Of a stretch of DNA of 60,937 nt, positions 1 to 60,937 are shown piece by piece (positions within the stretch are counted from its first letter, which is position 1; every line of letters begins with the position of its first letter). The DNA lies in the IMG/VR virus record IMGVR_UViG_3300045988_087795, one strand, 5' to 3'. The stretch is from a virus. The translations under genes and the position numbers were made by a program. A model generated the notes under the pieces. It was given only the letters and a program-made list of their open reading frames with translations, searched no databases and was not told the origin of the DNA.

Positions 1-80
1 GTTCGGCAACAATAACTCCTACAAGGATTCCAGCATCCACACATACCTGAACGGAACGTTCTACAACCTCATCGACAGCA
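1..80. repeat. Terminal redundancy, identical to 60858..60937 (circular-assembly overlap)
   Basis: The 80 nt gttcggcaacaataactcc...catcgacagca occur at both window ends, and a reading frame runs through them. Confidence 0.9.
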
Positions 81-1087
81 ACATCCGGGCGGCTATTAAG
101 CAGGTGAAAATCCCGTACCAGAACGGCACTGGTTCCGGCGGCAGCCTTGCCACCGGCTCCAACGGCCTGAGCACCAAAGTGTTCTTGCTGTCTGGTTATG
201 AGGTTGGTTGGACGACCAGCGACAACGGCTATTTCCCGAAGGACGGTGTGAGGCTGGCATACTTTGGCAACAGCTCCAGCGGTAACAGCAAGCGTATTGC
301 ATACAATGGCAGCTCCGCTGCCATTTGGTGGCTGCGCTCTCCGTACACCGACAGTGGCAACAGCGTCTGGGGCGTCGTCACCGATGGCTCCTACCGCTGC
401 GGCTGGTACAGCCACTCCTGTGGTGTTCGCCCCGCTTTCATTCTTCCCTCTACACTCGTGGTCTCTGACGACGGCACGGTCAGTGTCAACACTGCACCTA
501 CCGTCAGCACGGACGGCGCAGCTCTGGGGCGGAAGAACGCGGCCTTTGCGTGGAAGTACACCGTCAGGGATGCCGACGGCGACACCTTGACCGTCACCGA
601 AAAGCTGGACGGCAAGACCACCAAGGCCCACACCGGCGTTGCCAGCGGCACGGCTCTGACCTTTGAGCAGACGGCCAGCGCTGCCGGATTCCAGAAAATC
701 CTGAACGGCAACCACACCATCACCGTTGAGGTGAGCGACGGCAAGGAAACCGTCAGCACGTCCGCGACCTTTACCAAGGCCGTCCACGCCGCAAGCGTGA
801 CGCTGGCTGAACCGTTGGCCGTTGAGGGAGACATTACCGTTGCCGTGCTTCAGGTGACCGGCTCCATCCCCGATGATGCGAAGTTCAAAGCCGAAGTGAC
901 CAACAACGCACTCGACAGCTCCCCGGTCTGGCAGGATGCCACGACCGAGGTAAAAAAAGGCGTGAACATCGTCTTTGAGAATAAGACCGCCACCAACGGC
1001 GCGGCGTTTAACTTCCGCGTCAGCGTGGAGCGCGGCGAATCCGGCGAGGGCGGCTACATCGAAGCCGTCTCCGGCGCATTCCAGTAA
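2..1087 (+). CDS. DGR target protein, 3-prime part. Variable C-type-lectin-like (DUF6273/DUF1566-like) domain followed by an Ig-like C-terminal region. The 5-prime part is at 60685..60937; 419 aa in total. Probable tail fibre / receptor-binding protein.
   Basis: The frame is open from the window edge and continues in frame from the ATG at 60685 through the 80-bp overlap. Motifs KVFLLSGYE, WWLRSPY and GVRPAFIL. Contains the VR at 316..436. Confidence 0.85.
   Translation, partial: FGNNNSYKDSSIHTYLNGTFYNLIDSNIRAAIKQVKIPYQNGTGSGGSLATGSNGLSTKVFLLSGYEVGWTTSDNGYFPKDGVRLAYFGNSSSGNSKRIAYNGSSAAIWWLRSPYTDSGNSVWGVVTDGSYRCGWYSHSCGVRPAFILPSTLVVSDDGTVSVNTAPTVSTDGAALGRKNAAFAWKYTVRDADGDTLTVTEKLDGKTTKAHTGVASGTALTFEQTASAAGFQKILNGNHTITVEVSDGKETVSTSATFTKAVHAASVTLAEPLAVEGDITVAVLQVTGSIPDDAKFKAEVTNNALDSSPVWQDATTEVKKGVNIVFENKTATNGAAFNFRVSVERGESGEGGYIEAVSGAFQ
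316..436 (+). repeat. DGR variable repeat (VR)
   Basis: Ungapped 121-bp match to 59144..59264 with 14 mismatches, every one opposite an A in the other copy. Confidence 0.9.
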
Positions 1088-8790: not shown

Positions 8791-8955
8791 GTTAGATTGA
8801 GAGGCGGACGTTTGCGCGGCGCCACGAAGACATGGCGCAGACCTTTTTCGTGACATGACGAAAATGGTCCGGCAGTTGCTTACAACTTGACAGCAGCTTG
8901 GAAAATGAGTTCAACCCGTGCGATCCGAAAAGTTGAACTTGATGCAGGAAAACGC

Positions 8956-9039
8956 GCGGAAATAGCCTATTTTTGTGATTGAATACGCGCAAAACGTGCG
9001 GAATTGGCCTGTTTTTGTGATTGAATGCGCGCAAAGCGT
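8956..9039. repeat. 42-bp tandem direct repeat, two copies
   Basis: gcggaaatagcctatttttgtgattgaatacgcgcaaaacgt versus gcggaattggcctgtttttgtgattgaatgcgcgcaaagcgt, 5 mismatches. Confidence 0.85.
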
Positions 9040-11718: not shown

Positions 11719-11984
11719 AAATTACTTTTATGACCTTGCAGAAGGCCTCCATTGTGTGCCTGGGTGTGGGAATGTTCCTGGCCCTCGGTTCCGCTGGTAC
11801 GTTTGAAACGACCGGCGAAATCCAGACCGGCGTTTATGTGGCGGCGTTTGTGTTCCTGCTGGCTGCCGGGCTGCTTATGCGTTTGAGCTTTGCCCTCCAG
11901 GACTACGAGGAGAAGCAGCGCAAGATCCACAAGGCCCAGCGCGGCACCGTGAAGAAGCCAAGCACGAAGCGGAAGGCAGGCTGA
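11715..11984 (+). CDS. Two-TM membrane protein
   Basis: Hydrophobic segments IVCLGVGMFLALG and VYVAAFVFLLAAGLLM. ATGA overlap with the upstream gene. Confidence 0.55.
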   Translation: MKITFMTLQKASIVCLGVGMFLALGSAGTFETTGEIQTGVYVAAFVFLLAAGLLMRLSFALQDYEEKQRKIHKAQRGTVKKPSTKRKAG

Positions 11985-11986
11985 CC

Positions 11987-12280
11987 ATGTTTCACACAAC
12001 GGTGAAATGCGTGGACTGCGGCGCGCTTATGGTTGACGTGCCGAGCAATACAAAGCGCTGCGCCGTCTGCCGCGTGGGCCACAACAGGGAATCCGTTCGC
12101 AAGGCGAACGAGGCAGAGCGGGCTAGGCTGGCAGCGGAGGCCGCAAAGCCGAAGCCTCGGAACCTGGACGACGACCTGGAAGTCTTGAAGAAATACAACG
12201 AGCAGCGCCGGGCCGCAGGCCTTGAACCTTTGAGCTATGGCGTTTGGAGGTCCAGAGGGGCCCCGGAGGAATACGCATGA
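11987..12280 (+). CDS. Zinc-ribbon protein
   Basis: CVDCG...CAVC pairs. Confidence 0.55.
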   Translation: MFHTTVKCVDCGALMVDVPSNTKRCAVCRVGHNRESVRKANEAERARLAAEAAKPKPRNLDDDLEVLKKYNEQRRAAGLEPLSYGVWRSRGAPEEYA

Positions 12281-34256: not shown

Positions 34257-37200
34257 ATGTTTAGTATTCGCAAGGCGCGGGCGCCGACGCCCCACGACTT
34301 CGTGGCAAAATCCAAGCCCAAGAAGTCGAAAGCAGGGAAAGACGCCCTTAAAAAGCTGAACGACTACCTGAACTCGGCTTCCAGTGAGCCGATGTACTTC
34401 CTTCACAACTTTTGGAAGGCCCAGAGCAACGCCATCACCTACAAAGAACTTCGTGAAGCCATTATGAACGGCTACCTTGACGAAGCGACCCTCCAAGCGT
34501 GGCAGCAAGATTACTCCCTCTTTGTGAAAAGCCACCTTGAACCCATCTGGCAGCAGGCAGCCAAAGCCGGAGCCGATGCCCTGGCGGCGTCGGCTTCCGG
34601 CGGATGGGTTTTTGACCCCATGAGCGACGCCATGACGGCCTGGATCAAAGACCACGGCGCCGAGTGGGTAACGAAAATAAACGATGAAACCCGGGATGCC
34701 ATGCGCGCCATGATCGAGGCCAGCACAAAGGGCCAGTTCACGGTGGACGAGCTTTCCCGGGCGATCCGGCCGCTTATCGGCCTGACAGAGCCCCAGGCGG
34801 CCGCAAACCTGAAATATTACGCCAGCGTTAAGAAAAGCCTCCTTGACAACGGCGTGAAAGCGGATGCGGCCACCAAGAAGGCCAGGGAGCAGGCCTATAA
34901 GTACGCCGATAAACAGCTCCGGCAGAGAGCCTATACCATTGCCATCACCGAGAACGCCGCAGCGTACTGCGCCGGGTATCGTGAGGGCGCGGCCCAAGCC
35001 CAGGCGCAAGGCTACCTTGGGAAGGGTGTGTATGTTTTTGCGACCGCCGACGATGAAGACGTCTGCCCGGTGTGCAGCGCCCTGAACGGCACCGAAACCG
35101 ACGCCGAGGGAAGTTACCACATCGGCACAACAAAAATGGCCTTCAAGATGGGCCCACACCCGCCGGTGCATCCGCGCTGCCGGTGCGCCGAATACTTCGA
35201 GGAGAAGGAACCGCCCGTCTTTCTGCCCCAGCAGCCCGCACAGGACGTTATCCAGCCATGGCCGGGTAATTTGCCAGACCCGAGCGAAAGGGCAGAGGAC
35301 GAAGGCAAGGCCTTTGTGGCGGGCAGCTTGAAAGTGCCGGATGGCATGACCTCAAACGGCCCCGTCCACCTGGGCAACACTGGCAAGATGTACGATTACA
35401 CCGACGCCAACGGCTGGGAGTGGTATTTTAAGCCTGCCCAGAGCAAGGGCGGGCAGTATGAGCCGTTCCGGGCCTATGCGCAGGAGGCGGGCTACAAGGT
35501 GCAGTCCATCGTGGACCCGGACACGGCCGTCCCGGTGGGCGTTGGCACTATTGACGGAAAGTTTGGAGCTTTCCAGGAGAAGGTAAAGACCTCCGCCGGA
35601 GGAATCGACCTTGAAGCCTGGCAGCTTGGCGCGGCTTCCGACCTTCCGCCGGAGGTGACGGCGCAGATCCAGCGCGAGCACGTCACGGACTGGCTTCTGG
35701 GCAACTTCGATGCCCACGGCGAAAACTTCCTGACAGACCAGGAGGGCCGAATCGTTGGCATTGACAAAGAGCAGGCCTTCCGCTACATGGGCGACGCCAA
35801 AAGCCATGTAATGAGCTACACATACCACCCGAACAGCGCATACGGCGAAACGGAGCCGGTCTACAACACCCTTTTCCGCCGGTTTGCGGAGGAAGATATA
35901 GATCTGAGCCTCCAAGACACTTTGCCGTATATAAAGCGGGTTGAGAGCATCCCAGATAAAGAATACCGCGAGATCTTCCGCCCCTATGCCGAGGCCCTAC
36001 ACGGCCAAGGAAAAGAGGCGGAAAAGCTGCTGGACGAGATCGTGGAGCGCAAAAGCACCCTCCGCGAAACTTACCGCACGTTTTACGAAAGCCTTCTGAC
36101 GGAACGCACCGGCACGAAGGCTTCTTTTGTTTGGGCGGACGAGGCCGCGGCCGTTGCGAAGCAGCCCCTTGCGGCCGTGCAGATCACCCCGCAGGCGGCT
36201 AAAGGCATGACCGTCCAAGACCTGAAACAGATTGCAAAGAGCCAGGGCGTTGCCTACTACAGCAAAATGAGCAAGGCCCAGCTGGTGCAGGCTGTGACGG
36301 ACCCCGTGAAAGCCGCAGAGCTTTCCCGGGAGGTAAAGGCAAAGGCCGCCGCAAATGCAGCCGCCAGAAAGGCAAAAGCCCAGTACACAGCCCCGCAGGC
36401 AACAATCCCGAAGGGCGTTAAGGGTGCCGGAGAAATCTTCTCCGACCTGTCCAAGGTGCCCACCACACAGGAAGGAATCCCCATTGCTTCCGACCGCGGC
36501 AGCGTGGAGGGCCTTGTCCTTCGCGCCCGGCGGATGAACATTGACGGCGCCGAGGTCTACGAGGTGAGCGGAAAGCTGACGCAAGGTACCTGGGCGCGGG
36601 CGTTGAAAACAATCAAGCCCAGCAGTGCAACCGAAGCGCTGGAATTTGAGGAAGCCTCCAAGACGAGCGCCTTTTTCAGTTCCAGCGGTTTGAGCCTTGG
36701 AGTAAACACGAAGTGCAGGGCTGTCCACGATGGCGAAAAGACCTTGCAGATCTACACCCACGAGGGCGGCGAATATTACTCTTGGCAGGGCTTTTTTCGG
36801 GCCCGTGTTCCGGTGACGGCAGACGGCGGCTTTGATGCCCGGGAAATGAAAAAACTGTTGAAGACGGCAGGCCTTGACGACCTGACGGAAACGCCGACAG
36901 TGGAGGCCGAAAAACGCCTTATAAAGTCCCGCCTTGTCTGGCAGAACGCCCCTTCCCGCGCCCCAGAGTATGAAAATCTGACCAGCGACGCCCTGGACAA
37001 GAAGCTGGACGAGATCCTAAAAGACCTGGGCATTGACCAGAAGCGGGTGGACGGCGTGGAGCTGCGCAAGGTATGCGACGGTTACGCCGTCTATTACGAC
37101 CCGGCGCAGGCCAAAGCCTTAAAGGCTGCGGGTGCGGATTACGTTTGGTGCGGCGTTGGAAGCGCTGACAGCGTTGTTTCTATCATTCAGAGCGGAGGCC

Positions 37201-37685
37201 TTCGCAGCACAAACCGGCGCTGCCTTTCCGGCATCAGGCTGACCGGCGCAAGCCCAAGCCAGGATATGCGCACCGGCGGCGCAGATAATGTTTTCACCAG
37301 AATTGGAGTGAAGAATGTTCACGGGAAAGTGCGATATGATAAATCTTTCTGTGGCAGCGGCTATCGCCTTATTATTGACGAAGCGGAGCTGGGCCGCACA
37401 GACTGGTACGCATATACCGGGGATAACTTCGGAACGACCCAGCCGAGCACCTTCCACAGCCGCCAAGGCTCCGAGGAGTTCGTGAGAGGACAAAAAGAGG
37501 GTTATTACCAGTCCGGCAATGAAATCATGTTCCGCCAGGGCATCCCGGCCACGTCCATACAAAAGATTCGCTGCCCGGGCGAGCGTGAGCGCGGCAGGCT
37601 GCTGCAAGCGTTCCGCAATGCGGGAATAACGGAAGTGAACGGAGTGCCCATTGAGGATTTTGTGGAGGTTGGCGATCTGCTATGA
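34257..37685 (+). CDS. Giant MuF / SPP1-gp7-type minor head protein fused to additional domains (polyvalent / polymorphic-toxin-like virion protein)
   Basis: MuF core ITENAAAYCAGY...VCPVCSALNG...HPRCRC lies in the first ~320 aa. It is followed by ~820 aa including a kinase-like DxHxxN...ID loop, a Rho_N/SAP-like motif and a distinct C-terminal domain. Confidence 0.8.
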   Translation: MFSIRKARAPTPHDFVAKSKPKKSKAGKDALKKLNDYLNSASSEPMYFLHNFWKAQSNAITYKELREAIMNGYLDEATLQAWQQDYSLFVKSHLEPIWQQAAKAGADALAASASGGWVFDPMSDAMTAWIKDHGAEWVTKINDETRDAMRAMIEASTKGQFTVDELSRAIRPLIGLTEPQAAANLKYYASVKKSLLDNGVKADAATKKAREQAYKYADKQLRQRAYTIAITENAAAYCAGYREGAAQAQAQGYLGKGVYVFATADDEDVCPVCSALNGTETDAEGSYHIGTTKMAFKMGPHPPVHPRCRCAEYFEEKEPPVFLPQQPAQDVIQPWPGNLPDPSERAEDEGKAFVAGSLKVPDGMTSNGPVHLGNTGKMYDYTDANGWEWYFKPAQSKGGQYEPFRAYAQEAGYKVQSIVDPDTAVPVGVGTIDGKFGAFQEKVKTSAGGIDLEAWQLGAASDLPPEVTAQIQREHVTDWLLGNFDAHGENFLTDQEGRIVGIDKEQAFRYMGDAKSHVMSYTYHPNSAYGETEPVYNTLFRRFAEEDIDLSLQDTLPYIKRVESIPDKEYREIFRPYAEALHGQGKEAEKLLDEIVERKSTLRETYRTFYESLLTERTGTKASFVWADEAAAVAKQPLAAVQITPQAAKGMTVQDLKQIAKSQGVAYYSKMSKAQLVQAVTDPVKAAELSREVKAKAAANAAARKAKAQYTAPQATIPKGVKGAGEIFSDLSKVPTTQEGIPIASDRGSVEGLVLRARRMNIDGAEVYEVSGKLTQGTWARALKTIKPSSATEALEFEEASKTSAFFSSSGLSLGVNTKCRAVHDGEKTLQIYTHEGGEYYSWQGFFRARVPVTADGGFDAREMKKLLKTAGLDDLTETPTVEAEKRLIKSRLVWQNAPSRAPEYENLTSDALDKKLDEILKDLGIDQKRVDGVELRKVCDGYAVYYDPAQAKALKAAGADYVWCGVGSADSVVSIIQSGGLRSTNRRCLSGIRLTGASPSQDMRTGGADNVFTRIGVKNVHGKVRYDKSFCGSGYRLIIDEAELGRTDWYAYTGDNFGTTQPSTFHSRQGSEEFVRGQKEGYYQSGNEIMFRQGIPATSIQKIRCPGERERGRLLQAFRNAGITEVNGVPIEDFVEVGDLL

Positions 37686-47140: not shown

Positions 47141-50100
47141 AACTTTTAGAATTGCCATTGACGCGACCGTCAACGACAATACCGGCCCCGGCGTACAGTC
47201 CGCCCAGAAGCGCCTTTCTGGATTCGACAAGAGCATCAAGCACACCAAAGACCGGCTGGACCGGCTGACAAGCACGGGATTCCACATTGACCTGGATGCC
47301 GTAGACCGGGCAACCGCTACGATCCAGAACGTGGAAACGAAGGTGCACGGTTTCGTCGGTAAAGCCTGGAGTTTTACGGTTGGCATCATTGACAAGGCGA
47401 CGGCGCCTTTGCAGGGCATTATAAACCTTGTGAAAAACCCCGTCTTGCAGGCCGGTGCCATTTTCGGCGTTTCTGTGAGCCTGGCCGACACGGTGAGTAC
47501 ATACGGAGCCTTTGAGGAATCCATGTCGAACGTGAAGGCCATTTCCGGCGCTACGGCCGAGGAGTTCGACAAGTTGACCGCCAAAGCCAAGGAGGAAGGC
47601 GCAACCACGAAATTCACGGCCAAGGATTCGGCGGACGCCTTCGGTTATATGGCTATGGCCGGGTGGAAGACCGAAGATATGCTGCAAGGCATTGACGGTA
47701 TTATGAGCCTGGCCGCAGCTTCAAACGAGGACCTGGCGACCACTTCCGACATTGTGACCGATGCTTTGACGGCCTTTGGGCTGAAAGCGTCCGATTCCGG
47801 GCACTTCGCCGACGTGCTGGCGCAGGCCAGCGCGAACGCGAACACGAACGTCGGCATGATGGGCGAATCGTTCAAGTACGTTGCCCCTGTGGCAGGCGCC
47901 TTGAAGTATTCCGTGGAAGACGTTTCCCTGGCCCTGGGCCTCATGGCAAACGCCAGCGTCAAGGGCTCCATGGCAGGCACCAGCCTGAAAACCTCCCTTG
48001 CGAACATGGCAGCGCCCACCGACAAAATGGAAGCCGCCATGGACAAGTACGGCATCAGCCTGACCAAGCGCAACGGCGAAATGAAGACCATGCACGAGGT
48101 TTTGGACAACTTGCGCAGCAGCCTGGGCGGCCTTTCCGAAACCGAACAGACCGCGGCCGCAAGTACCATCTTCGGCAAGGAAGCCATGGCCGGTATGCTG
48201 GCGATCATCAACGCATCCGAAGACGATTACAACAAACTGACCGCGGCCGTGAACAACGCCGACGGTGCATCCCAGCAGATGGCAGACACGATGCTGGACA
48301 ACATGAACGGCAGCTTTACGCTGCTGCAATCGGCGGTTGACGGCGCAAAAATCGCCCTTGGCGAGCGCCTTTCTCCGTACCTTCGGGAGTTCGCAACGTG
48401 GATCACCAACAAAATGCCGCTGGTAGAGGATGCAATCGGCGACGTGATGGACCATGTGGACGCAAAGGTCGAGGATCTGCGCCACACCATTGCAGAGTTT
48501 ACCGCCAGCGACGAGTGGGCAAGCGCCGACATTTGGGGCAAGCTTGGCATTGCCTGGGATAAGATCGTGGCGGAGCCGTTCGACGAGTGGTGGAACGGCA
48601 GCGGCCGCCAGTTCTTTGCCGACAGGGCCGCAGGCCTGGGCCGTGGCCTTGGCAGCGGCATTACCGCCGGATTCCTGGCGCTGCTGGGCATTGACCCCGC
48701 CGGGGCCATTGACGACGGTGCAGCTATTGGTGCAAACTTTGTTTCCGGCTTTATGGACGGCCTGGACTTCGACGGAATCCTGGACGGCTTGAAGACCTGG
48801 GCGGAAAACCACAAGGCCCAGGTGGCGGCCATTGGCGCCGTTCTCGGCTTCAAGCTGGTAACGGGCGCAGCAAGCGCCTATTCTAAACTTCGCGGTCTTA
48901 CCGCGGCGCTGGGCCTTGGAGGCGGCACGGGCACCGGCATGGGCTCTTCTGGTATGCCTTCCATGGGCGGCTCTTTCAAGACTTCCGCGGCCGTTATGAA
49001 CGTAACGGCCCAGATGGTGGTCTTGAAGTCTGGCAACTTTGGCGCTGAGGCTGGCTCCAAGGCCCGCCAGGCGGCAGAAGCGGCCTTTTCTGGTGGAACC
49101 GGCAGCCCTTCGCTGCCGAGCGGCGGCGCGCTTGTCCCGAGCGCGGGCGCCCCGGCGACGGCCGGAGCGCTGCCCGGCACTACAAGGCTCCTCGGCGACG
49201 GCAAGGCGACCTTTGAGGGGACGGCCGTTGAGATTGACCCGGCGGCACTGCCCGCAAAGGGCCTGACTTCCGCAAATGGCTGGCTGGGCAAGCTCCTGCA
49301 AAAGGGCTCCACCCAGGCCACCATGAGCGCGGACGGCACCCTGACTTCTGTTACCGGCGGCGTTGGCGGCACCCTGGGCGGCATTGGCACGGCCCTGGGC
49401 AGCCATGCGACCACGGCGGCAGGCACGGCCGCAGCGGGCGGCGCAAGTATTCTGGGCGGCATTCTGGGCCTTCTGGGCATCGGTGCAGGCGTGAGAAACC
49501 TGTACCGCGGCACCCAGACCACCGGCAAGGACGCTCAGAACGAGTATTCCAAGGGCGGGACCAAGATCGGCATGGTCGGCGCAGGCGCAGCGGCAGGCGC
49601 AGCCGTGGGCACTGTGGTGCCTGTTGCTGGAACCGGCGTCGGCGCTCTTGTGGGTGCCGGTATCGGTGGTCTTGGCGCCCTGGGCTTTGGCGACAAAATC
49701 GGCCAGGCTCTTTCCGATGCACTGGACGAAGGCGGAGCGCTGGACAACCTGAAACAGACGGTTGGAACCTTCTTCACTTCGACGCTGCCGGAGCACTGGA
49801 CGAGTTTCTGGGATGGCGTGGGCACCACGTTTTCCGAAACAATCCCCTATGCAATCGGCTACGCCCTGGGCAAAACGAAGGTTTTCTTTACCAACACGCT
49901 GCCGGAACACTGGACCGCCTTCTGGGATGGTGTAGGGGAGTTCTGGACCGAGGACGTCCCTGCATGGGTGGAGAGCACCGGCGAAAAGGCCGTCATGTTC
50001 TTCACCGAAACGCTTCCGACCAAGTGGACGGACTTCTGGACCGGCGTTGGCGACTTCTGGACAAAGGAAGTCCCGGCATGGGTTGAAAGCAGCGTGACGA

Positions 50101-50714
50101 GCGCGGTAAACTTCTTCACCGTGACGCTTCCGGCGAAGTGGACCGGCTTCTGGTCTGGCGTGGGCGACAAGATCAGCGGATTTTTCACCAACGCCAAAAA
50201 CGCCTTTAGTTCTGGCCTCTCTGCCGGATCGTTTACGACCGGCGGAGGCACGAGCAGCGGCGGAGGAGGCGGCCGTGTTACTCCGCACGCTATGGGCGGC
50301 ATTATGACGAGCCCGCACGTTGGCCTTGTGGCAGAAGACGGCCCGGAAGCGATTATTCCGCTTGGCGGCAGCCGCCGAACTAGAGCGCTTGATCTTTGGA
50401 ATCAAACGGGATCGATTCTTGGCGCCGACTATTCGGGCGATTCGGACGACGACACGCCCGAAAACGTGCCCACGTTCTCCCCCGTCGTGTACCCGGCACC
50501 GGCGCCGCAGGCGCCCGCAGGAGCCGTAGCGCAGCCCATTTCTATTCCGGTAGAAATTGGGCTGAACCCGCAGTTTATCATCCAGGGCACCGAAGGCATG
50601 AGCCCGGACGAGATTATCGCAACCGTGAAATCCCGCATCCGCGAAATGGTGGACGACATAAGCGACGAGCTGGCCGAACGCCTGGCCCGTGTCCTTGCGA
50701 ATATGCCCGCATAA
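47130..50714 (+). CDS. Tail tape measure protein
   Basis: AISGATAEEFDKLTAKAKEEGATTKFTAKDSADAFGYMAMAGW (TP901-type core). 1194 aa. Gly/Ala-rich tracts. Confidence 0.9.
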   Translation: MASETFRIAIDATVNDNTGPGVQSAQKRLSGFDKSIKHTKDRLDRLTSTGFHIDLDAVDRATATIQNVETKVHGFVGKAWSFTVGIIDKATAPLQGIINLVKNPVLQAGAIFGVSVSLADTVSTYGAFEESMSNVKAISGATAEEFDKLTAKAKEEGATTKFTAKDSADAFGYMAMAGWKTEDMLQGIDGIMSLAAASNEDLATTSDIVTDALTAFGLKASDSGHFADVLAQASANANTNVGMMGESFKYVAPVAGALKYSVEDVSLALGLMANASVKGSMAGTSLKTSLANMAAPTDKMEAAMDKYGISLTKRNGEMKTMHEVLDNLRSSLGGLSETEQTAAASTIFGKEAMAGMLAIINASEDDYNKLTAAVNNADGASQQMADTMLDNMNGSFTLLQSAVDGAKIALGERLSPYLREFATWITNKMPLVEDAIGDVMDHVDAKVEDLRHTIAEFTASDEWASADIWGKLGIAWDKIVAEPFDEWWNGSGRQFFADRAAGLGRGLGSGITAGFLALLGIDPAGAIDDGAAIGANFVSGFMDGLDFDGILDGLKTWAENHKAQVAAIGAVLGFKLVTGAASAYSKLRGLTAALGLGGGTGTGMGSSGMPSMGGSFKTSAAVMNVTAQMVVLKSGNFGAEAGSKARQAAEAAFSGGTGSPSLPSGGALVPSAGAPATAGALPGTTRLLGDGKATFEGTAVEIDPAALPAKGLTSANGWLGKLLQKGSTQATMSADGTLTSVTGGVGGTLGGIGTALGSHATTAAGTAAAGGASILGGILGLLGIGAGVRNLYRGTQTTGKDAQNEYSKGGTKIGMVGAGAAAGAAVGTVVPVAGTGVGALVGAGIGGLGALGFGDKIGQALSDALDEGGALDNLKQTVGTFFTSTLPEHWTSFWDGVGTTFSETIPYAIGYALGKTKVFFTNTLPEHWTAFWDGVGEFWTEDVPAWVESTGEKAVMFFTETLPTKWTDFWTGVGDFWTKEVPAWVESSVTSAVNFFTVTLPAKWTGFWSGVGDKISGFFTNAKNAFSSGLSAGSFTTGGGTSSGGGGGRVTPHAMGGIMTSPHVGLVAEDGPEAIIPLGGSRRTRALDLWNQTGSILGADYSGDSDDDTPENVPTFSPVVYPAPAPQAPAGAVAQPISIPVEIGLNPQFIIQGTEGMSPDEIIATVKSRIREMVDDISDELAERLARVLANMPA
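49770..50225 (+). repeat. Four tandem 114-nt (38-aa) repeats inside the tape measure gene
   Basis: FFTxTLPxxWTxFWxGVG units start at 49770, 49884, 49998 and 50112. Confidence 0.85.
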
Positions 50715-54879: not shown

Positions 54880-55649
54880 GCACCCGGAAGAACTTCGACC
54901 TTGAAAAATTCCCCGAAAACCGCGTTTCCCAGCGCATGATCTCCCGCGTTTCGCCTATCTATGAGCGGTCCTATGTGGCGAAGTGGCTTTATGAGGTCAT
55001 GGGCCAGGAGGTGGACGACGCGGAGATCCGCTTCTCGGAACTGCGGGAGCAGGCAAACCCGGAAACGGCAACTTGGGCCCTGCGCTACTGGGAGCAGCGT
55101 TACGGCATCGAGGTGGACGAGAGCCGGAGCCTGGCAGCCCGCCGGGCGGACATAATCGCCCGCCGCGGCGCCCGTGCTCCGATGAACCCGGAACGTTTCA
55201 AAAGGATTCTTGAAGCAACAACGCAATGCGACGTGGAAATTAGAGAGTATATCGCACCGTATACTTTTGGCGTTTATCTGAAAGCAGATGATGCGGAGGA
55301 AGTAAATGTTCTTCGCATTGTAAAGCAGATAAAGAAAATTAAACCGTCGCATTTGACATATCGCCTATCTCTGCTGTATCAGCCGAAAACGAAGCTCGCG
55401 TATATTTCCGGGAAATTATACAATGTTAATGCATCCTGCACCATCCGGCTGCCGGGTGTGATTCAGCCGCGAGCTGTTGGTGCTACGGCATACACCGCCG
55501 GAGCTGCTGCATCGGCAAGGATGATGGCGGAAGTTAAGCTCCCCGGAATCATTGCCCCGAAATCCGTTTCCGCGCAAGCCTATGCCGCAGGCAGGCTTGC
55601 ACACACACATGAAACCGTAACCATTACGATTGGAGGACAGACAACGTGA
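54876..55649 (+). CDS. XkdU/YmfQ-like tail protein
   Basis: WALRYWEQRYGI...ARRADIIARR. ATGA overlap with the upstream gene. Confidence 0.7.
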   Translation: MSTRKNFDLEKFPENRVSQRMISRVSPIYERSYVAKWLYEVMGQEVDDAEIRFSELREQANPETATWALRYWEQRYGIEVDESRSLAARRADIIARRGARAPMNPERFKRILEATTQCDVEIREYIAPYTFGVYLKADDAEEVNVLRIVKQIKKIKPSHLTYRLSLLYQPKTKLAYISGKLYNVNASCTIRLPGVIQPRAVGATAYTAGAAASARMMAEVKLPGIIAPKSVSAQAYAAGRLAHTHETVTITIGGQTT

Positions 55650-56773
55650 GTTGGGAAAAATCCAGTTACACGAAAGCCGGTGCCGCCCTGCTGTCGGAAT
55701 CTCTCTCCGGCGGCGCACTGACCATTACCCGCGCCGCGAGCGGCACCGGCTCTGTTGACACCGACCTGTCGGCAGAAACCGCAGTCAGCGGCGACACGCA
55801 CGAGCTGTCCTTGCTGGGCATTGAAACCGTCACGGACGACGGCAAAACCGCCCGCAAGGTCAGCATTCAGGCCACCGGTGCAGCAGATACCTACGTTATG
55901 CACCAGATCGGCGTTTTCGGTGTCTTGAACGATGGCGCAGAAACGCTCCTGTTTATCATGCAGGATGAACGCGGCATTGAAGTCCCTGCCGCAAGCACGA
56001 ACTCCGAGTTTTCGTTTGAAATCGCCGTCCTGCTGGCTGTTTCGGCAGAAGCCAACATGTCCATCGCCGTTGACCCTCAGGTGCAGGCGTTGATGAAGCT
56101 GGTCAAAGCCGAGATCGAGAAGCACAATGCCAATGCCGACGCCCATGCGGCGACAATCACGGCAGCGGTCAGCGCAGCCGTGAAGAACCTGTCTGAATCC
56201 GGGGAAATCCTGAACGAAGAACAGGTAAAGGCTCTTATCAAGGAGCAGGTGGACGGCTGCACAGGCGGCGGCTACTATGGCTCCTACGAACTCACCCTTG
56301 CGGCTGACGGGTGGAAGCCCGCTCGCAGCGAGGATGATTACGAAAACGCTGGCGGTATGGATTACTACCAGTGCATTTATGATGCAGAACTGTCGGACAG
56401 CACCAGCGAGCTTGTACCCGTTGGCGTTGTATCTCCCGGCAGCTTCTATACTACGACCAAAGCGGGCGTCCTGAACGGGTGCGAAACGCATGATGGTTTC
56501 ATAAGATTTTTCGCTCAGCGCATCCCGGAAGCAGATATTCAGGCGACCGTAACCCTGTTCGGGAAAGGAGGTGGTTCGGGTGAAACCGGTAGCGTAAGCA
56601 TCGGTCAGGGCTTGAAGCGTGACGCGAGCGGCGCTATTGCCGTCCGCATTGGCGAAGGCCTTGACTTTGACAGCGCAAACGCGCTGACTGTCCGCAAAGA
56701 AACCGTTATGACGAGCGAAGACCTGCTGAACGAGGAAGAAACGCAGCAGGAAATCGTTGATATGCTGAAATAA
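55646..56773 (+). CDS. Tail fibre protein (N-terminal tail-collar-like region)
   Basis: GTGA overlap. TKAGAALLSESLSGGALTITRAASGTG...HQIGVFG. Confidence 0.6.
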   Translation: MSWEKSSYTKAGAALLSESLSGGALTITRAASGTGSVDTDLSAETAVSGDTHELSLLGIETVTDDGKTARKVSIQATGAADTYVMHQIGVFGVLNDGAETLLFIMQDERGIEVPAASTNSEFSFEIAVLLAVSAEANMSIAVDPQVQALMKLVKAEIEKHNANADAHAATITAAVSAAVKNLSESGEILNEEQVKALIKEQVDGCTGGGYYGSYELTLAADGWKPARSEDDYENAGGMDYYQCIYDAELSDSTSELVPVGVVSPGSFYTTTKAGVLNGCETHDGFIRFFAQRIPEADIQATVTLFGKGGGSGETGSVSIGQGLKRDASGAIAVRIGEGLDFDSANALTVRKETVMTSEDLLNEEETQQEIVDMLK

Positions 56774-56791
56774 TTTTAGGAGGACACTATT

Positions 56792-57661
56792 ATGTCTAAG
56801 CAGATTTCTACCAAGACCACCATCCGCAACCTGACCGCCGAGATTAAGAAGACCTTCGTTAAGAAGGACGCCTTTACCCCTGTGCAGACCGCAGCCAACG
56901 CTGCTATCAAGTCTCTTGGCGTTGACGGCAACACCGTGAACTTCTACACCTCTACCGACAAGAGCGGCACTGCTGCTTTCTCCGTTGACTTCCCCTCTGA
57001 GCTGTTCCTCGACCAGACCAAGACCACCTTCGTGGCCAAGTTCAAGTTCGATGCTGCGACCTACCCCGGCGCTACCGACCCCAAGCTGGACGGCAAGCCC
57101 GTCATGGTGCTGGCCGTCAAGGGCGAGAATCCTGACTCCTGCACCTACTCTTTCCTGAGCATGGCTGCGCTGGTGGATACCTACAAGGCTAAGGCCGTCG
57201 GCAAGGATGCTTCCACCACCGTTACCATCGCTGGCTATGAGGTGGATGTCAAGGTCAATGTTTCCGCTGCTGCGGGCAACGCTCTGACCCTGAAGGACGA
57301 CGGTCTGTATGTTCCCACCCCTGAGGAAGTGGACATTTCCGGCAAGGCCGATAAGGTCACTGGTGCTACCACCGGCAACCTCGCTGCGCTGGACGGCGAG
57401 GGCAACCTGACCGACAGCGGCAAGAAGCCTGCCGACTTTGTGGCCGCCGAGGCTGGCAAGCGCCTGATGACCGATGCCGAGGGCGAAAAGCTGGCCGGTG
57501 TCTCTGAGGGTGCCACCAAGACCGCAGCCAGCTCCACCAACGGCAATGTGAACATTGACGGCAAGGAAGTCGTCGTGTACACCGAGCCGGAGAATGTTCT
57601 GCACGACGAGGATGTGGAGGACTTCTCCGCAGAGGAGATCGCCGCTCTGCTGGCTGACTAA
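56792..57661 (+). CDS. Fibre-associated structural protein, hypothetical
   Basis: Strong RBS taggagga. Codon usage is visibly more biased than in neighbouring genes. Confidence 0.5.
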   Translation: MSKQISTKTTIRNLTAEIKKTFVKKDAFTPVQTAANAAIKSLGVDGNTVNFYTSTDKSGTAAFSVDFPSELFLDQTKTTFVAKFKFDAATYPGATDPKLDGKPVMVLAVKGENPDSCTYSFLSMAALVDTYKAKAVGKDASTTVTIAGYEVDVKVNVSAAAGNALTLKDDGLYVPTPEEVDISGKADKVTGATTGNLAALDGEGNLTDSGKKPADFVAAEAGKRLMTDAEGEKLAGVSEGATKTAASSTNGNVNIDGKEVVVYTEPENVLHDEDVEDFSAEEIAALLAD

Positions 57662-57681
57662 GACATGAGGAGGTAAGCTCT

Positions 57682-58131
57682 ATGGCAAAAGCGAAGATCA
57701 AAACGCTTTTGGGCACAGGGCTTGCCGCGCTTTGCAGCCACATCAAGCAGTGCAACACCGCACTCGGAGACCTTTCCGAAGCAACGGCAAACGGATTCGA
57801 GGAAACCGATGACATCCTGCACGAAAAGCAGGATGTCACGGCTGCGGTGTCTTTTACGATTCCGGTCGATGGCTGGGGCGAGGATGATTCCTCCCCCGGC
57901 TATTTTTATTGTGACATCCCCATTGCGGGCCTGTTGGCTACCGACATTGTGGATGTTACGGTACTGCCGGAATTTTACGATGTGGCGGGTGCGGTGGGTT
58001 TTATTGCGACCGAAAGCCTCGAAGGAAAGCTGCGGCTGAGGGCCGCCAAAGCTCCGACCGAGAAAATTTCTGCACAGTATCACATTACAAGCACCGTGAA
58101 ATACACGGCTGCACAGGAAGGGGAAACCTAA
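57682..58131 (+). CDS. Hypothetical fibre-module protein
   Basis: gaggagg RBS. Confidence 0.5.
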   Translation: MAKAKIKTLLGTGLAALCSHIKQCNTALGDLSEATANGFEETDDILHEKQDVTAAVSFTIPVDGWGEDDSSPGYFYCDIPIAGLLATDIVDVTVLPEFYDVAGAVGFIATESLEGKLRLRAAKAPTEKISAQYHITSTVKYTAAQEGET

Positions 58132-58518
58132 ATGGCATACGGTTCTTTTAACGCAGGCCCCGGCAAGGCGCCGGATGAAGATGTTGTCCGCACTAACCAG
58201 ATCGGCGTGCCGGGCGGCATTGCCACGCTGGATGCTGACGGCCATTTGACCGAATCGCAGCGTCCGGCGGTGGACGCATACACCAAGGCTGAAACCGACC
58301 AGCGCATCAGCGCGGCCGTTGACAACCACAACGGTGCGGAGAACGCCCACAGCGACATCCGTGCCAGTGTGGCAGCTATGAACGCCAGCATCAAGGCCAT
58401 TGAGCTGAAGTTCAGCACAAACGTGACGAAAAATCCTTTTTCCGCCACGTTCAGCAGCCTTGACGGCCTGACCGTCACCGGCGTGTGGAACGCAGAACAG
58501 GCGAGGGTGGAGTTCTGA
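58132..58518 (+). CDS. Hypothetical fibre-module protein
   Basis: IGVPGGIATLDADGHL is a motif common in phage fibre proteins. Confidence 0.5.
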   Translation: MAYGSFNAGPGKAPDEDVVRTNQIGVPGGIATLDADGHLTESQRPAVDAYTKAETDQRISAAVDNHNGAENAHSDIRASVAAMNASIKAIELKFSTNVTKNPFSATFSSLDGLTVTGVWNAEQARVEF

Positions 58519-59093
58519 TGGCTGAAACATTCAAGGTCGGCGCGAATGCGCGGGAGCTGTTGCGCTACACTCAGAGGGCAACCCGCATCGTCACCGATGA
58601 CATCAGCCGGAGCGATGCCCGGAAGATCATCCAGAAAGTCGCGGCGCTCGAAGATGTGCGCGACATCCAAAAGTTGTGCGGCACTGCCGTCCATGCACTC
58701 GACACACGGGACAGGGAGGGCTTTTCCAAAAGCACTTTCCGTCTGTACGGTGAGGGCATCCGGCTGACTGCCCGGCAAATCCTGCTGGATGCACACGCGG
58801 CGAACAACGTCAATTTCCAGACCGACTACGACAAGCGCGTTGAGAAGATCGGCGCAGTTGTGGACGGTTGCTCTCTGCTACTGGAATACCTGACCATCTG
58901 CACGGAGGAAGGCATCATCAGTGCGAAGAAAGCCGGTATCTGGACAAAGAAGGTCACGGACGTAAAATACCCGGCGATGAAGTGGCTCACGTCGGAACGC
59001 GGACGTGCCGAAAAACTCCGGGCAGAAGCGGAACGGAAACGGCTGACCGAACAGGCCGCCGCCCTGAAAGCCGTCCTTTACCCGGAACCGTAA
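58518..59093 (+). CDS. avd: Avd-like DGR accessory protein (helical-bundle type), unusually long at 191 aa
   Basis: TGATG overlap with the upstream stop. Pattern ARQILLDAHAAN...KRVEKIGAVVDGCSLLLEYLTICTEEGIISAKKAGIWTKKVTDV..MKWL. Lies directly upstream of the TR. Confidence 0.55.
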   Translation: MAETFKVGANARELLRYTQRATRIVTDDISRSDARKIIQKVAALEDVRDIQKLCGTAVHALDTRDREGFSKSTFRLYGEGIRLTARQILLDAHAANNVNFQTDYDKRVEKIGAVVDGCSLLLEYLTICTEEGIISAKKAGIWTKKVTDVKYPAMKWLTSERGRAEKLRAEAERKRLTEQAAALKAVLYPEP

Positions 59094-59104
59094 ACGCACA
59101 GCTG

Positions 59105-59140
59105 GCAACCGCTTTGCATAAAGGGTGCGGTTTGTTTGTC
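59105..59140 (+). terminator. Weak hairpin plus T-rich run between avd and the TR
   Basis: aaccgc (59107..59112) pairs with gcggtt (59127..59132), followed by tgtttgt. Confidence 0.3.
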
Positions 59141-59143
59141 TGT

Positions 59144-59264
59144 CGCTGCCATTTGGTGGCTGCGCTCTCCGTACACCAACAATAACAACAGCGTCTGGGA
59201 CGTCGACACCGATGGCTCCTACAACTACAACTGGTACAACAACTCCTATGGTGTTCGCCCCGCT
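59144..59264 (+). repeat. DGR template repeat (TR)
   Basis: 121-bp ungapped match to VR 316..436. In the VR frame it reads AAIWWLRSPYTNNNNSVWDVDTDGSYNYNWYNNSYGVRPA, with 8 AAY codons. Confidence 0.9.
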
Positions 59265-59434
59265 CTGATGGAACCGTGTGACGAGTAGGCATAAGCTGAA
59301 AGCAGTGCGCCCATCAAAGGAAACCGCATCCTGTCGCTTGCCGATGCAGGCAAGTGATAAATACATCCCGCTGAGGTGGGCCATCTCTGCCGGATGCAGC
59401 CCACTACCGTAACGCGAACCAGCGGAGGGTCATT
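59265..59434 (+). ncRNA. TR-RT spacer, probably part of the DGR template RNA
   Basis: Non-coding. Hairpins at 59335..59356 (cgcttgcc-gatgca-ggcaagtg) and 59376..59404 (gtgggc...gcccac). Confidence 0.4.
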
Positions 59435-60664
59435 TTGACATACGAAGAACTGTGCAGCTTTGAGGTACTTTACAAAGCCTACCTTGAAGCCCGGAAGGGA
59501 AAGCGCAGTAAAAGCAAAACAATCGAGTACGAGGCGCAGGCGCTGGCCTGCACGGAAAAGCTCTCCCGTAAGCTGGCTGTCTGCAATGTGCGGCAGCCAG
59601 ACGGGAGCATTCGGCAGCAGATACGCTATGTGCCAAGTAAGTTTGAGGTCTTTGCCGTCTACGAGCCGAAGCGCCGCATGGTACACGCCCCCGCATTTGT
59701 GGACAAGGTGGTGCTGCACGCTCTGGTCGATAACATCCTGTATGATGCCCTGACAAAGAGCTTTATCCGGGACAGCCACGCCAGCCAGACCGGAAAAGGC
59801 ACAGACGACGGCCTGATGCGCCTGAAAACCCACATGGTGGACTATTACCGCCGTGAGGGCCACGGCGCGGACGGCTGGGTGCTGAAAGGCGACGTGCGGC
59901 ATTTCTTCGCCAGCATCGACCACCGGAAGCTAAAACGCAAGCTCAAAGCCGTGCTGGACAAGCGCGGCATTGACCCGCGTGTCTATGAGCTGCTTTGCAT
60001 CTACATCGACGTGATGGAGGACGGCTTGCCGCTGGGCTACCAGACGAGCCAGCTTTTCGCCCTCATGTTTTTGGACGAGTTCGACCACATCATCAAAGAA
60101 AAGTACCGCATCAAATACTATGGCCGATACATGGATGATTTCTACATCATCTGTTCGGACAAGAAGAAATTGCAGTGCATTCTCCGGGATGTTCGGGCGC
60201 TCATGGACAGTTACGGCCTTGAGCTGAACCAGAAAACCGCCATTTTCCCGCTGCGGAACGGTATTGATTTTCTGGGATTCCATAGCTACCTGACCGACAC
60301 CGGCGCGGTCATCCAAAAGCTGCTCCGGGATAGCTCCAAGCGGATGAAGAACAAGATCAGATATTGGGAGACGGCATACCCCGCAGGCGAAGTGACCAAG
60401 CAGGAAATCCTGCGGAGCTTTGATGCGTGGGATGCCCATGCCGCCCATGGTGATACTTACTCTTTACGCCGCAAGTACGCTGACCGGCTCGAAAAATTGC
60501 TTGACTGTAAAATCCCTATCCATCGAAAAATCAACTCGAACAAACTCGCGCGTGACAGACGGCGGGCGAGGCAATGCCGCTGCATCTACAAGAAGCAGCA
60601 CAAAGCCCTGTCCCTCTCTGTATCGCAGAACACGCGGCCCGCGGAGATCATGCCGTGGGCCTGA
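59435..60664 (+). CDS. DGR reverse transcriptase
   Basis: TTG start after ggaggg. LPLGYQTSQLFALMFL (SQ-type motif of DGR RTs) and GRYMDDFYII. No maturase or endonuclease tail. Confidence 0.85.
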   Translation: MTYEELCSFEVLYKAYLEARKGKRSKSKTIEYEAQALACTEKLSRKLAVCNVRQPDGSIRQQIRYVPSKFEVFAVYEPKRRMVHAPAFVDKVVLHALVDNILYDALTKSFIRDSHASQTGKGTDDGLMRLKTHMVDYYRREGHGADGWVLKGDVRHFFASIDHRKLKRKLKAVLDKRGIDPRVYELLCIYIDVMEDGLPLGYQTSQLFALMFLDEFDHIIKEKYRIKYYGRYMDDFYIICSDKKKLQCILRDVRALMDSYGLELNQKTAIFPLRNGIDFLGFHSYLTDTGAVIQKLLRDSSKRMKNKIRYWETAYPAGEVTKQEILRSFDAWDAHAAHGDTYSLRRKYADRLEKLLDCKIPIHRKINSNKLARDRRRARQCRCIYKKQHKALSLSVSQNTRPAEIMPWA

Positions 60665-60684
60665 ACGAAAACAAGGAGGTAACA

Positions 60685-60937
60685 ATGGCAAACGTAAAAC
60701 TGGGCACGAAAGCCGTTGGCAGCATTGTCAAAATCAAAGTCAACGGCGCGTCCAAAGATTTTATTGTTGTGCAGCAGGGCAACCCGAACACCAGCACCTA
60801 TGATTCGAGTTGCAATGGAACGTGGCTGCTGATGAAGGACATCTACACCACGTCCACGTTCGGCAACAATAACTCCTACAAGGATTCCAGCATCCACACA
60901 TACCTGAACGGAACGTTCTACAACCTCATCGACAGCA
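60685..60937 (+). CDS. DGR target protein, 5-prime part (runs off the window end and continues at 81..1087)
   Basis: aaggagg RBS and ATG 60685. MANVKLGTKAVGSIVKIKVNGASKDFIVVQQ... has no stop before the window end. Confidence 0.85.
   Translation, partial: MANVKLGTKAVGSIVKIKVNGASKDFIVVQQGNPNTSTYDSSCNGTWLLMKDIYTTSTFGNNNSYKDSSIHTYLNGTFYNLIDS
60858..60937. repeat. Terminal redundancy, identical to 1..80
   Basis: Direct comparison of both ends. Confidence 0.9.

What the first reader, a model, noticed from the sequence alone, without database searches (positions are those of the whole stretch)
59144..59264. Diversity-generating retroelement: 121-bp TR/VR pair whose 14 mismatches all fall on TR adenines
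59144..59264 (between an avd-like gene and an RT gene) aligns without gaps to 316..436 inside the fibre-like ORF. I count 14 mismatches, at VR positions 350, 354, 356, 357, 372, 378, 395, 396, 399, 401, 402, 411, 413 and 420. At every one the TR base is A and the VR base is G, C or T; no non-A position differs. In frame, the TR encodes AAIWWLRSPYTNNNNSVWDVDTDGSYNYNWYNNSYGVRPA (8 AAY codons). The VR encodes AAIWWLRSPYTDSGNSVWGVVTDGSYRCGWYSHSCGVRPA. The adjacent RT has the SQ-type motif and a YMDD box. This is the signature of adenine-specific mutagenic retrohoming acting on a probable receptor-binding protein.
Basis: seen in the sequence. Interest (0 to 1): 0.85.

Follow-up and report, generated by a model that had tools for sequence, protein, structure and literature searches.

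The report
Known phage DGR, correctly spotted
This is a real diversity-generating retroelement, which rewrites one patch of a phage surface protein by error-prone reverse transcription, but the same cassette has already been described in Faecalibacterium phages such as FP_Toutatis and Lelie.

Summary
TR 59144-59264 aligns without gaps to VR 316-436. There are 14 mismatches, all at TR adenines (P = 5e-11), and all 28 TR adenines sit at codon positions 1 or 2.

The contig is circular (80-bp terminal repeat). The cassette therefore reads avd-like gene, TR, structured spacer RNA, RT, target gene. The 419-aa target spans the contig junction.

The RT is closest to the Bordetella phage BPP-1 DGR RT, not to group II intron or retron RTs. 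In 126 related TR/VR pairs from public contigs, 1927 of 1973 mismatches fall on TR adenines and nearly every VR is unique.

The element is not new. The cassette is 96.5-99% identical to those of FP_Toutatis, Lelie and many gut contigs. The target is a published "tentaclin": an N-terminal DUF6273 domain (reported as C-type-lectin-like) followed by Ig-like domains.

"Fibre-like" and "receptor-binding" remain inference.

Three things differ from Toutatis:
- Only about 6.8 kb is shared with Toutatis.
- The second DGR target is absent.
- The TR itself carries six adenine-only changes relative to the canonical TR. All six are inherited by the VR, and similar TR changes recur in a few other lineages.

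The parts
58518..59093 (+). avd-like accessory gene (191 aa, pI 9.3)
   Evidence: Matches PHROG phrog_3206 'Avd protein of DGR' at E = 5.7e-36. A 91%-identical protein is named '23S rRNA-intervening sequence protein' by nr. It is the same length and position as Toutatis gp79, annotated 'Avd protein of DGR'. There is no Pfam or PDB sequence match.
59144..59264 (+). Template repeat (TR), 121 nt, 28 adenines, 8 AAY codons
   Evidence: It differs from the canonical TR of 147 related contigs at 6 sites, all A>N: positions 29, 48, 56, 62, 77 and 83 of the repeat.
59265..59434 (+). TR-to-RT spacer, a structured RNA
   Evidence: RNAalifold on 12 diverged relatives predicts 40 pairs, 15 of them with compensatory changes. 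There is a full-length but sub-threshold match to Rfam RT-2 (RF03077) at the same place in the window, L001, L003 and L074: 21-29 bits against a gathering score of 40.
59435..60664 (+). DGR reverse transcriptase (409 aa, TTG start), with LGYQTSQ and YMDD motifs
   Evidence: Pfam RVT_1 at 3.3e-19. PHROG 1423 at 5e-121. The best PDB relative is the BPP-1 RT 8ub7_A at 8.5e-25, against 2e-8 or weaker for other RT classes. All NCBIfam group II, retron and DRT models score far below their cutoffs.
60685..60937 (+). 5' part of the target gene (residues 1-84), continuing at 81 after the circular junction
   Evidence: 80-bp terminal repeat. The joined ORF is 419 aa. It is 96% identical over 100% of its length to database proteins of 419 aa and collinear with Toutatis gp82.
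81..1087 (+). Remainder of the target gene: DUF6273 domain (aa 44-208) followed by Ig-like beta-sandwich domains (aa ~221-402)
   Evidence: Pfam DUF6273 at 1.9e-36 and a weak Big_9 hit. PHROG 10993. The AF2 model has beta-sandwich 221-316 at pLDDT 77-87.
316..436 (+). Variable repeat (VR), encoding aa 164-203 at the C-terminal end of the DUF6273 domain and not at the protein's C-terminus
   Evidence: It carries all six of the window-specific TR substitutions with the same base.

Best explanation
This is a canonical phage diversity-generating retroelement of the Toutatis type. It sits in a circular 60.9-kb contractile-tailed Faecalibacterium phage genome.

Inferred mechanism, by analogy with BPP-1. 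The avd-TR-spacer-RT region is transcribed. The RT, together with the Avd-like protein, binds the structured spacer RNA. It reverse-transcribes the TR and misincorporates opposite template adenines. The cDNA then replaces the VR in the gene immediately downstream.

The VR encodes residues 164-203 of a tentaclin-type protein with an N-terminal DUF6273 domain and C-terminal Ig-like domains. Because all 28 TR adenines lie in codon positions 1 and 2, 19 codons can be rewritten, 8 of them AAY, without creating stop codons from AAY.

Shown here: the anatomy, the RT class, the adenine-only pattern in this genome and in 126 relatives, the conserved spacer RNA structure, and that the present VR was copied from the present, already altered, TR.

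Inferred: the biochemical steps, the ligand, and where the target sits on the virion.
For: - TR/VR: 14 of 14 mismatches at TR-A, P = 5e-11; adenines only at codon positions 1 and 2.
- Gene order avd-TR-RT-target on a circular contig.
- The RT is nearest to the BPP-1 DGR RT and well below the thresholds for other RT families.
- The spacer RNA shows covariation and an RT-2-like match.
- Population evidence: 1927 A-site against 46 non-A mismatches in 126 pairs and 125 distinct VRs. All 34 A sites are polymorphic across 44 VRs that share one identical TR.
- The VR inherits 6 of 6 window-specific TR changes. Homing therefore happened after this TR diverged from relatives whose cassette is about 99% identical.
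- The cassette is 96.5-96.7% identical to FP_Toutatis and Lelie. Their DGRs are published (PMC5883640, PMC11792537, bioRxiv 10.1101/2024.10.15.618418).
- The same cassette lies in a Faecalibacterium prausnitzii genome.
- The backbone has terminase, major head, sheath, tape measure and baseplate genes.
Against: - No read-level data exist for this sample, so current activity is not shown. The closely related phage Lelie showed no VR read variation in culture (PMC11792537).
- The Avd assignment rests on a PHROG profile and annotation names only. There is no Pfam or PDB sequence link, and Cornuault 2018 reported finding no Avd in Toutatis.
- No significant hairpin or cruciform lies downstream of the VR (z = 0.17).
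- The C-type lectin fold of the VR-bearing domain could not be confirmed here. The AF2 pLDDT is below 45 over residues 122-198 and Foldseek found no PDB match.
Confidence: 0.94

Rival explanations
1. The cassette is a recently silenced or only conditionally active DGR. On this view the VR differences are historical and no diversification goes on in this phage population.
For: Phage Lelie, whose cassette is 96.7% identical, showed no nucleotide-variation peak at its VRs in any sequencing sample (PMC11792537). The window's TR has lost 6 of 34 adenines, which reduces its diversifying capacity.
Against: All ORFs are intact and the RT keeps YMDD and the SQ motif. The VR carries all six TR-specific changes plus 14 further A-site changes, so at least one homing event post-dates the TR change. 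That change itself post-dates divergence from relatives about 99% identical in the cassette. Nearly all related VRs (125 of the 127 equal-length pairs) are distinct.
Confidence: 0.15
2. The target is not a tail fibre or receptor-binding protein. It would instead be a capsid- or tail-anchored adhesin of the Hoc or tentaclin type that binds mucus, host glycans or other non-receptor ligands.
For: The best PHROG family is annotated 'Hoc-like head decoration' (2e-143). The architecture is a binding domain followed by Ig-like domains. Baykov 2023 (PMC10743442) lists binding to intestinal or immune cells as open hypotheses. A separate tail-fibre gene (55646-56773, phrog_27381) lies upstream.
Against: The gene sits at the end of the tail-fibre module, before an XkdX-like gene and the lysis genes. 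One homologue of the domain is named 'tail protein' by nr. No experiment exists either way.
Confidence: 0.35
3. The TR/VR pair is an ordinary diverged duplication of a gene fragment, or an assembly artefact, and is unrelated to the RT.
For: None beyond the bare existence of a repeat.
Against: 14 of 14 differences are at A of one copy (P = 5e-11). The same asymmetry is seen in 126 independent contigs. The TR is identical in 147 contigs while the VRs all differ. The window's TR and VR cannot be chimeras of each other: adjacent bases read TR GAC, VR GGC and canonical TR AAC.
Confidence: 0.01

Closest known systems
DGR of Faecalibacterium phages FP_Toutatis (NC_047915) and Lelie (PP479942), genus Toutatisvirus
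   Same: The module from tail fibre through avd, TR, RT and target to the XkdX-like gene is 92-97% identical at the DNA level. Gene order and lengths are the same. The TR is the same length and has the same flanks. The large target has the same DUF6273 plus Ig architecture.
   Different: Only about 6.8 kb of the 60.9-kb genome is shared with Toutatis. The rest has no megablast match among 50,697 phage records. The second, small DUF6273 target (Toutatis gp24, VR2 at 11932-12032) is absent. The TR has 28 adenines rather than 34.
Tentaclins (Baykov et al. 2023, PMC10743442)
   Same: An N-terminal DUF6273 domain carries the VR in the 5' half of the gene and is followed by Ig-like domains. The paper lists the FP_Toutatis group as tentaclin-encoding. 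It also notes that when a cassette has a single target, that target is the tentaclin, as here.
   Different: The fold of the VR-bearing half and the C-terminal anchor motif were not confirmed here.
Bordetella phage BPP-1 DGR (Mtd, Avd, bRT)
   Same: Adenine-specific TR-to-VR transfer. The RT is the nearest solved relative (8ub7_A). A small basic accessory ORF lies upstream of the TR. A structured spacer RNA lies between the TR and the RT.
   Different: In BPP-1 the target lies upstream of avd and its VR is at the C-terminus. Here the target lies downstream of the RT and its VR is mid-protein. The Avd-like protein is 191 aa with no detectable sequence match to BPP-1 Avd. No downstream cruciform was detected.

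Membership tests
Diversity-generating retroelement (DGR) | Reverse transcriptase of the DGR clade (motif 4 [I/L]GxxxSQ, YxDD active site) | tested here: met
   The sequence contains LGYQTSQLF and YMDD. The best PDB relative is the BPP-1 bRT 8ub7_A at E = 8.5e-25, about 54 bits above any other RT class. No full phylogeny was built.
Diversity-generating retroelement (DGR) | Near-identical TR/VR pair whose differences fall on TR adenines | tested here: met
   121 bp with 14 of 14 mismatches at TR-A, P = 5.3e-11.
Diversity-generating retroelement (DGR) | VR lies inside a protein-coding gene, with TR adenines placed in codon positions 1 and 2 (AAY codons) | tested here: met
   The VR encodes aa 164-203 of a 419-aa ORF. 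Of the 28 adenines, 12 are at codon position 1, 16 at position 2 and none at position 3. There are 8 AAY codons.
Diversity-generating retroelement (DGR) | Accessory variability determinant (Avd-type small basic protein) next to the TR | tested here: inconclusive
   PHROG 'Avd protein of DGR' at 5.7e-36. nr names a 91%-identical protein '23S rRNA-intervening sequence protein'. The pI is 9.3. However there is no Pfam hit even at E = 10 and no PDB hit to BPP-1 Avd by sequence or profile.
Diversity-generating retroelement (DGR) | IMH-type GC-rich 3' end of the VR, a diverged counterpart at the TR, and a downstream hairpin or cruciform | tested here: inconclusive
   Both repeats end in GTTCGCCCCGCT and diverge immediately afterwards: VR TTCATTCTTCCC, TR CTGATGGAACCG. 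No significant DNA hairpin lies within 85 nt downstream of the VR (z = 0.17).
Diversity-generating retroelement (DGR) | Structured RNA between the TR and the RT | tested here: met
   40 predicted pairs, 15 with compensatory changes across 12 relatives. Rfam RT-2 matches are full-length but sub-threshold in four lineages.
Diversity-generating retroelement (DGR) | Adenine-restricted VR heterogeneity in populations (activity) | tested here: met
   Between contigs: 1927 A-site against 46 non-A mismatches and 125 distinct VRs. All 34 A sites are polymorphic under one identical TR. Within-sample read heterogeneity is not testable with these tools.
Tentaclin (DGR target family, PMC10743442) | N-terminal DUF6273 domain carrying the VR | tested here: met
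   Pfam DUF6273 at 1.9e-36 over aa 44-208, with the VR at aa 164-203.
Tentaclin (DGR target family, PMC10743442) | The DUF6273 domain has a C-type lectin fold with the VR on a surface beta-hairpin | tested here: inconclusive
   Two AF2 models were built. The first has mean pLDDT 44.7. The second has pTM 0.69 but pLDDT below 45 over residues 122-198. Foldseek against PDB gave no match with E below 0.5. A profile search against PDB sequences found only the DUF6273 domain of an IgA protease, 9qa6_A, at 2e-4. The C-lec assignment rests on the published models.
Tentaclin (DGR target family, PMC10743442) | [quoted passage not shown] | tested here: inconclusive
   A beta-sandwich at 221-316 is predicted with pLDDT 77-87, and further beta strands run to residue 402. 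Pfam Big_9 scores 18.3 bits, below its 23.6 cutoff. The C-terminal consensus motif was not checked.
   TIGR04416 group II RT/maturase scores 87 bits against a cutoff of 300. Retron St85 scores 48 against 235. All DRT models are far below their cutoffs.

The most novel reading that the evidence does not exclude
The template repeat of this DGR is not an immutable master copy.

The window's TR differs from the canonical TR at six sites. The canonical TR is identical in 147 of 170 related contigs. All six differences are A>N, and the relatives concerned are about 99% identical in the rest of the cassette. The VR has inherited all six.

At least four other lineages with a genuine avd-side flank show the same kind of clustered, adenine-dominated TR change (L021, L187/L195, L164, L179), and L234 shows a similar pattern. 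The change at TR position 29 recurs in parallel; at that site only 2 of 44 VRs keep the templated Asn.

This suggests occasional mutagenic homing into the TR, or VR-to-TR conversion. Either would let selection hard-wire favoured residues into the template and gradually erode its diversifying capacity.
Probability: 0.5. Interest if true: 0.45.

Novelty: already known. Interest (0 to 1): 0.22.

Why it matters
For the main claim the value is confirmation. The first-stage reader can recognise a DGR from raw sequence with base-level accuracy. The instance itself adds another genome to a well-described and very abundant gut-phage DGR family. More than 8000 database clusters match the target, one of them holding about 30,000 member sequences.

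Two side results may be useful to specialists:
- The tail-fibre/DGR/tentaclin module travels between otherwise unrelated Faecalibacterium phage backbones, with or without the second target.
- Natural TRs in this family occasionally carry adenine-specific, multi-site changes that are then passed on to the VR. This bears on how DGR templates evolve and decay.

Tried and rejected
1. Second VR. A blastn-short search with the TR, and tblastn with both the large target and Toutatis gp24, found only the one VR and the TR. The window therefore has a single target.

2. Fold of the target.
- AF2 on the full protein with 33 close homologues gave mean pLDDT 44.7.
- I then built a diverse domain alignment through a representative search and a profile search and re-predicted. 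pTM rose to 0.69, but the VR-bearing half stayed unreliable.
- Foldseek against PDB gave nothing.
- Sequence and profile searches against PDB found only the DUF6273 domain of an IgA protease.
- The C-type lectin fold could not be confirmed here.

3. Avd. Pfam at E = 10, and phmmer and profile hmmsearch against PDB, gave no link to BPP-1 Avd.

4. Cruciform downstream of the VR. The fold is not better than shuffled sequence.

5. Promoter and terminator scan of the cassette. Nothing above the shuffle expectation.

6. Whole TR-plus-spacer RNA fold of the single sequence. Not significant (z = -1.0). Only the comparative analysis showed structure.

7. Assembly chimera as the source of the odd TR. 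Rejected for the window (see rival 3). Accepted for L147 and L224, whose upstream flanks are not the avd side; both were excluded.

8. Literature search for natural TR mutagenesis. One hit, not relevant, so I cannot say whether the TR observation has been published.

9. Two megablast calls failed on query length.

Full report
**Observation**

In every one the 59-kb copy has A and the other copy has G (11 times), C (2) or T (1).

The A-bearing copy has 28 adenines. The hypergeometric probability that 14 mismatches all fall on them is 5.3e-11. Homology ends abruptly on both sides.

In the reading frame of the VR-bearing gene, all 28 TR adenines are in codon positions 1 or 2 and eight codons are AAY. 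A repeat search and a sensitive blastn found no further copy.

**Anatomy**

The window begins and ends with the same 80 bases, so it is a circular 60,857-bp contig that was cut inside a gene. The VR-bearing ORF starts at 60685, crosses the junction and ends at 1087 (419 aa). Database proteins of 419 aa match it at 96% over its full length. Toutatis has the same arrangement, with the RT followed by the target.

The cassette is compact:
- avd-like ORF, 58518-59093
- TR, 59144-59264
- 170-nt spacer, 59265-59434
- RT, 59435-60664
- target gene, with the VR encoding residues 164-203

Upstream lie a tail-fibre gene and three small conserved ORFs. Downstream lie an XkdX-like ORF, an endolysin and a holin. 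The rest of the genome encodes terminase, head morphogenesis, major head, tail sheath, tape measure and baseplate proteins. This is a contractile-tailed phage.

**The parts**

- RT. It has RVT_1 and the motifs LGYQTSQ and YMDD. Its nearest solved relative is the Bordetella phage BPP-1 DGR RT (8ub7_A, E = 8.5e-25). Cas6-RT-Cas1, group II intron and retron RTs score 2e-8 or weaker. All NCBIfam group II, retron and defence-RT models score far below their cutoffs.
- avd-like ORF. It matches the PHROG family annotated 'Avd protein of DGR' (5.7e-36). A 91%-identical protein is named '23S rRNA-intervening sequence protein', and the protein is basic (pI 9.3). It has no Pfam match and no detectable sequence relation to solved Avd. 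I rate this feature as probable but not proven.
- Spacer. Across 12 diverged relatives it has a conserved secondary structure: 40 predicted pairs, 15 with compensatory changes. In four lineages it gives a full-length but sub-threshold match to Rfam RT-2 at the same position.
- Downstream of the VR. No significant hairpin was found.

**Evidence of activity**

Read data are not available, so I used related sequences.

A search with the RT protein in IMG/VR gave 80 loci. An exact-pattern scan of metagenome contigs gave more than 80 further loci. Three genome contigs include a Faecalibacterium prausnitzii isolate.

Among 126 TR/VR pairs of equal length, 1927 mismatches are at TR adenines and 46 elsewhere. 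There are 125 distinct VRs among the 127 equal-length pairs.

For 44 VRs paired with one identical TR, every one of the 34 TR-A positions is polymorphic. Non-A positions vary in at most 2 of the 44.

TR length variants (-3 nt in L008, +3 nt in L161) are mirrored in their VRs. This is the population-scale signature of adenine-specific mutagenic homing.

**What is known**

The cassette is 96.5-96.7% identical to Faecalibacterium phages FP_Toutatis and Lelie. RefSeq already annotates 'Avd protein of DGR', 'Reverse transcriptase' and 'Hoc-like head decoration' there.

- Cornuault et al. 2018 (PMC5883640) reported the Toutatis DGR, with target function unknown and no Avd detected.
- A 2024 study (PMC11792537) described Lelie's DGR with a large and a small DUF6273 target, and saw no read-level variation at its VRs.
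- Baykov et al. 2023 (PMC10743442) defined 'tentaclins'. These have an N-terminal DUF6273 domain, reported as C-type-lectin-like, that carries a hypermutated beta-hairpin and is followed by Ig-like domains. They listed the Toutatis group among them.
- A 2024 preprint (10.1101/2024.10.15.618418) described the Toutatisvirus avd-TR-RT-VR1 hotspot and a distant VR2.

The finding is therefore a correct identification of an already described element.

**Target function**

Pfam gives DUF6273 (1.9e-36) and a sub-threshold Ig domain. PHROGs gives 'Hoc-like head decoration'.

My structure predictions gave a confident beta-sandwich at 221-316 and a confident N-terminal half of the DUF6273 domain. The VR-bearing half was unreliable, and Foldseek found no PDB match. 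I could not confirm the C-type lectin fold myself.

'Receptor-binding protein' is a reasonable inference from gene position and architecture, but it is unproven. A mucus- or glycan-binding adhesin role is a live alternative.

**How this genome differs from the published ones**

1. Only 55618-60937 plus 1-1476 (about 6.8 kb) is similar to Toutatis. The other 54 kb has essentially no megablast match among 50,697 phage records. A few IMG/VR contigs share the window's downstream flank, while most share the Toutatis context. The tail-fibre/DGR/tentaclin module is therefore mosaic across backbones.

2. The small second target (Toutatis gp24, VR2) is absent.

3. The TR itself is unusual.
- 147 of 170 related contigs carry one identical 'canonical' TR with 34 adenines. 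The window's TR differs from it at six sites, all A>N (A29T, A48G, A56G, A62G, A77T, A83T).
- The nearest relative differs at only 12 of 2026 positions in the rest of the cassette.
- The window's VR carries the same base at all six sites. From the VR base frequencies, that would happen by chance at roughly 6e-4. The variant TR is therefore real and was the template for the present VR.
- It is not a TR/VR assembly chimera, because adjacent bases read TR GAC, VR GGC and canonical AAC.
- Comparable clustered, adenine-dominated TR changes with a genuine avd-side flank occur in four other lineages: L021 (6 of 6 at A), L187/L195 (9 of 10 at A, all 10 inherited by the VR), L164 (3 of 3) and L179 (10 of 12). 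L234 shows a similar pattern.
- Two further candidates, L147 and L224, had foreign upstream flanks and were discarded as chimeras.
- Position 29 changed in parallel in several lineages. At that site only 2 of 44 VRs keep the templated Asn.
- This points to occasional adenine mutagenesis of the template itself, by homing into the TR or by VR-to-TR conversion, followed by selection. I could not distinguish the two routes. A limited literature search did not show whether this has been reported.

**Verdict**

The element is already known and overall interest is low. The TR-erosion pattern is a modest lead worth a specialist's attention.

Noticed in passing
window 1-80 and 60858-60937: An exact 80-bp terminal direct repeat shows that the contig is circular (60,857 bp). 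The DGR target gene is split across the ends, and ORF lists of the linear window show only a truncated 104..1087 version.
   Followed up: yes
window 59144-59264; L021, L187, L195, L164, L179, L234: The window's TR carries six A-only substitutions relative to the canonical TR shared by 147 of 170 related contigs, and its VR inherits all six. Similar adenine-dominated multi-site TR changes recur in a few other lineages, with a parallel change at repeat position 29.
   Followed up: yes
window 1477-55617: About 54 kb of the genome has no megablast match to FP_Toutatis and essentially none in 50,697 phage records. Only the tail-fibre/DGR/tentaclin module is shared, so the module is mosaic across Faecalibacterium phage backbones.
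   Followed up: partly
whole window; compare L084 11505-12152 (Toutatis gp24): The second, small DUF6273 DGR target (VR2) found in Toutatis and Lelie is absent. This cassette has a single target.
   Followed up: yes
window 59136-59288; L001 4040-4192: The TR lies in a 50-aa ORF that RefSeq annotates in Toutatis as a 'DUF6273 domain-containing protein'. This is most likely an annotation artefact of the non-coding template.
   Followed up: partly
L008, L155, L215 (TR -3 nt); L161 (TR +3 nt); L240: TR length variants (one AAC codon lost or gained) are mirrored in the cognate VR where one was examined (L008, L161). L240 has a recombinant TR, canonical at its 5' and 3' ends with L003-type sequence in the middle, and its VR still matches the canonical template.
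   Followed up: partly
window 49766-50165: Four copies of a roughly 58-nt motif lie at exactly 114-nt spacing inside the tape-measure gene. This is an in-frame 38-aa periodic repeat.
   Followed up: no
window 8949-9032: There are two tandem 42-nt direct repeats at 88% identity, AAAACGCGCGGAAATAGCCTATTTTTGTGATTGAATACGCGC. They could be a regulatory or origin-type repeat. I did not examine whether they fall in coding sequence.
   Followed up: no
window 29104-30723 and 34257-37685: There is a ParB-like domain fused to a DNA methyltransferase (539 aa). There is also an unusually long (1142 aa) protein whose N-terminal 310 aa match head-morphogenesis families.
   Followed up: no
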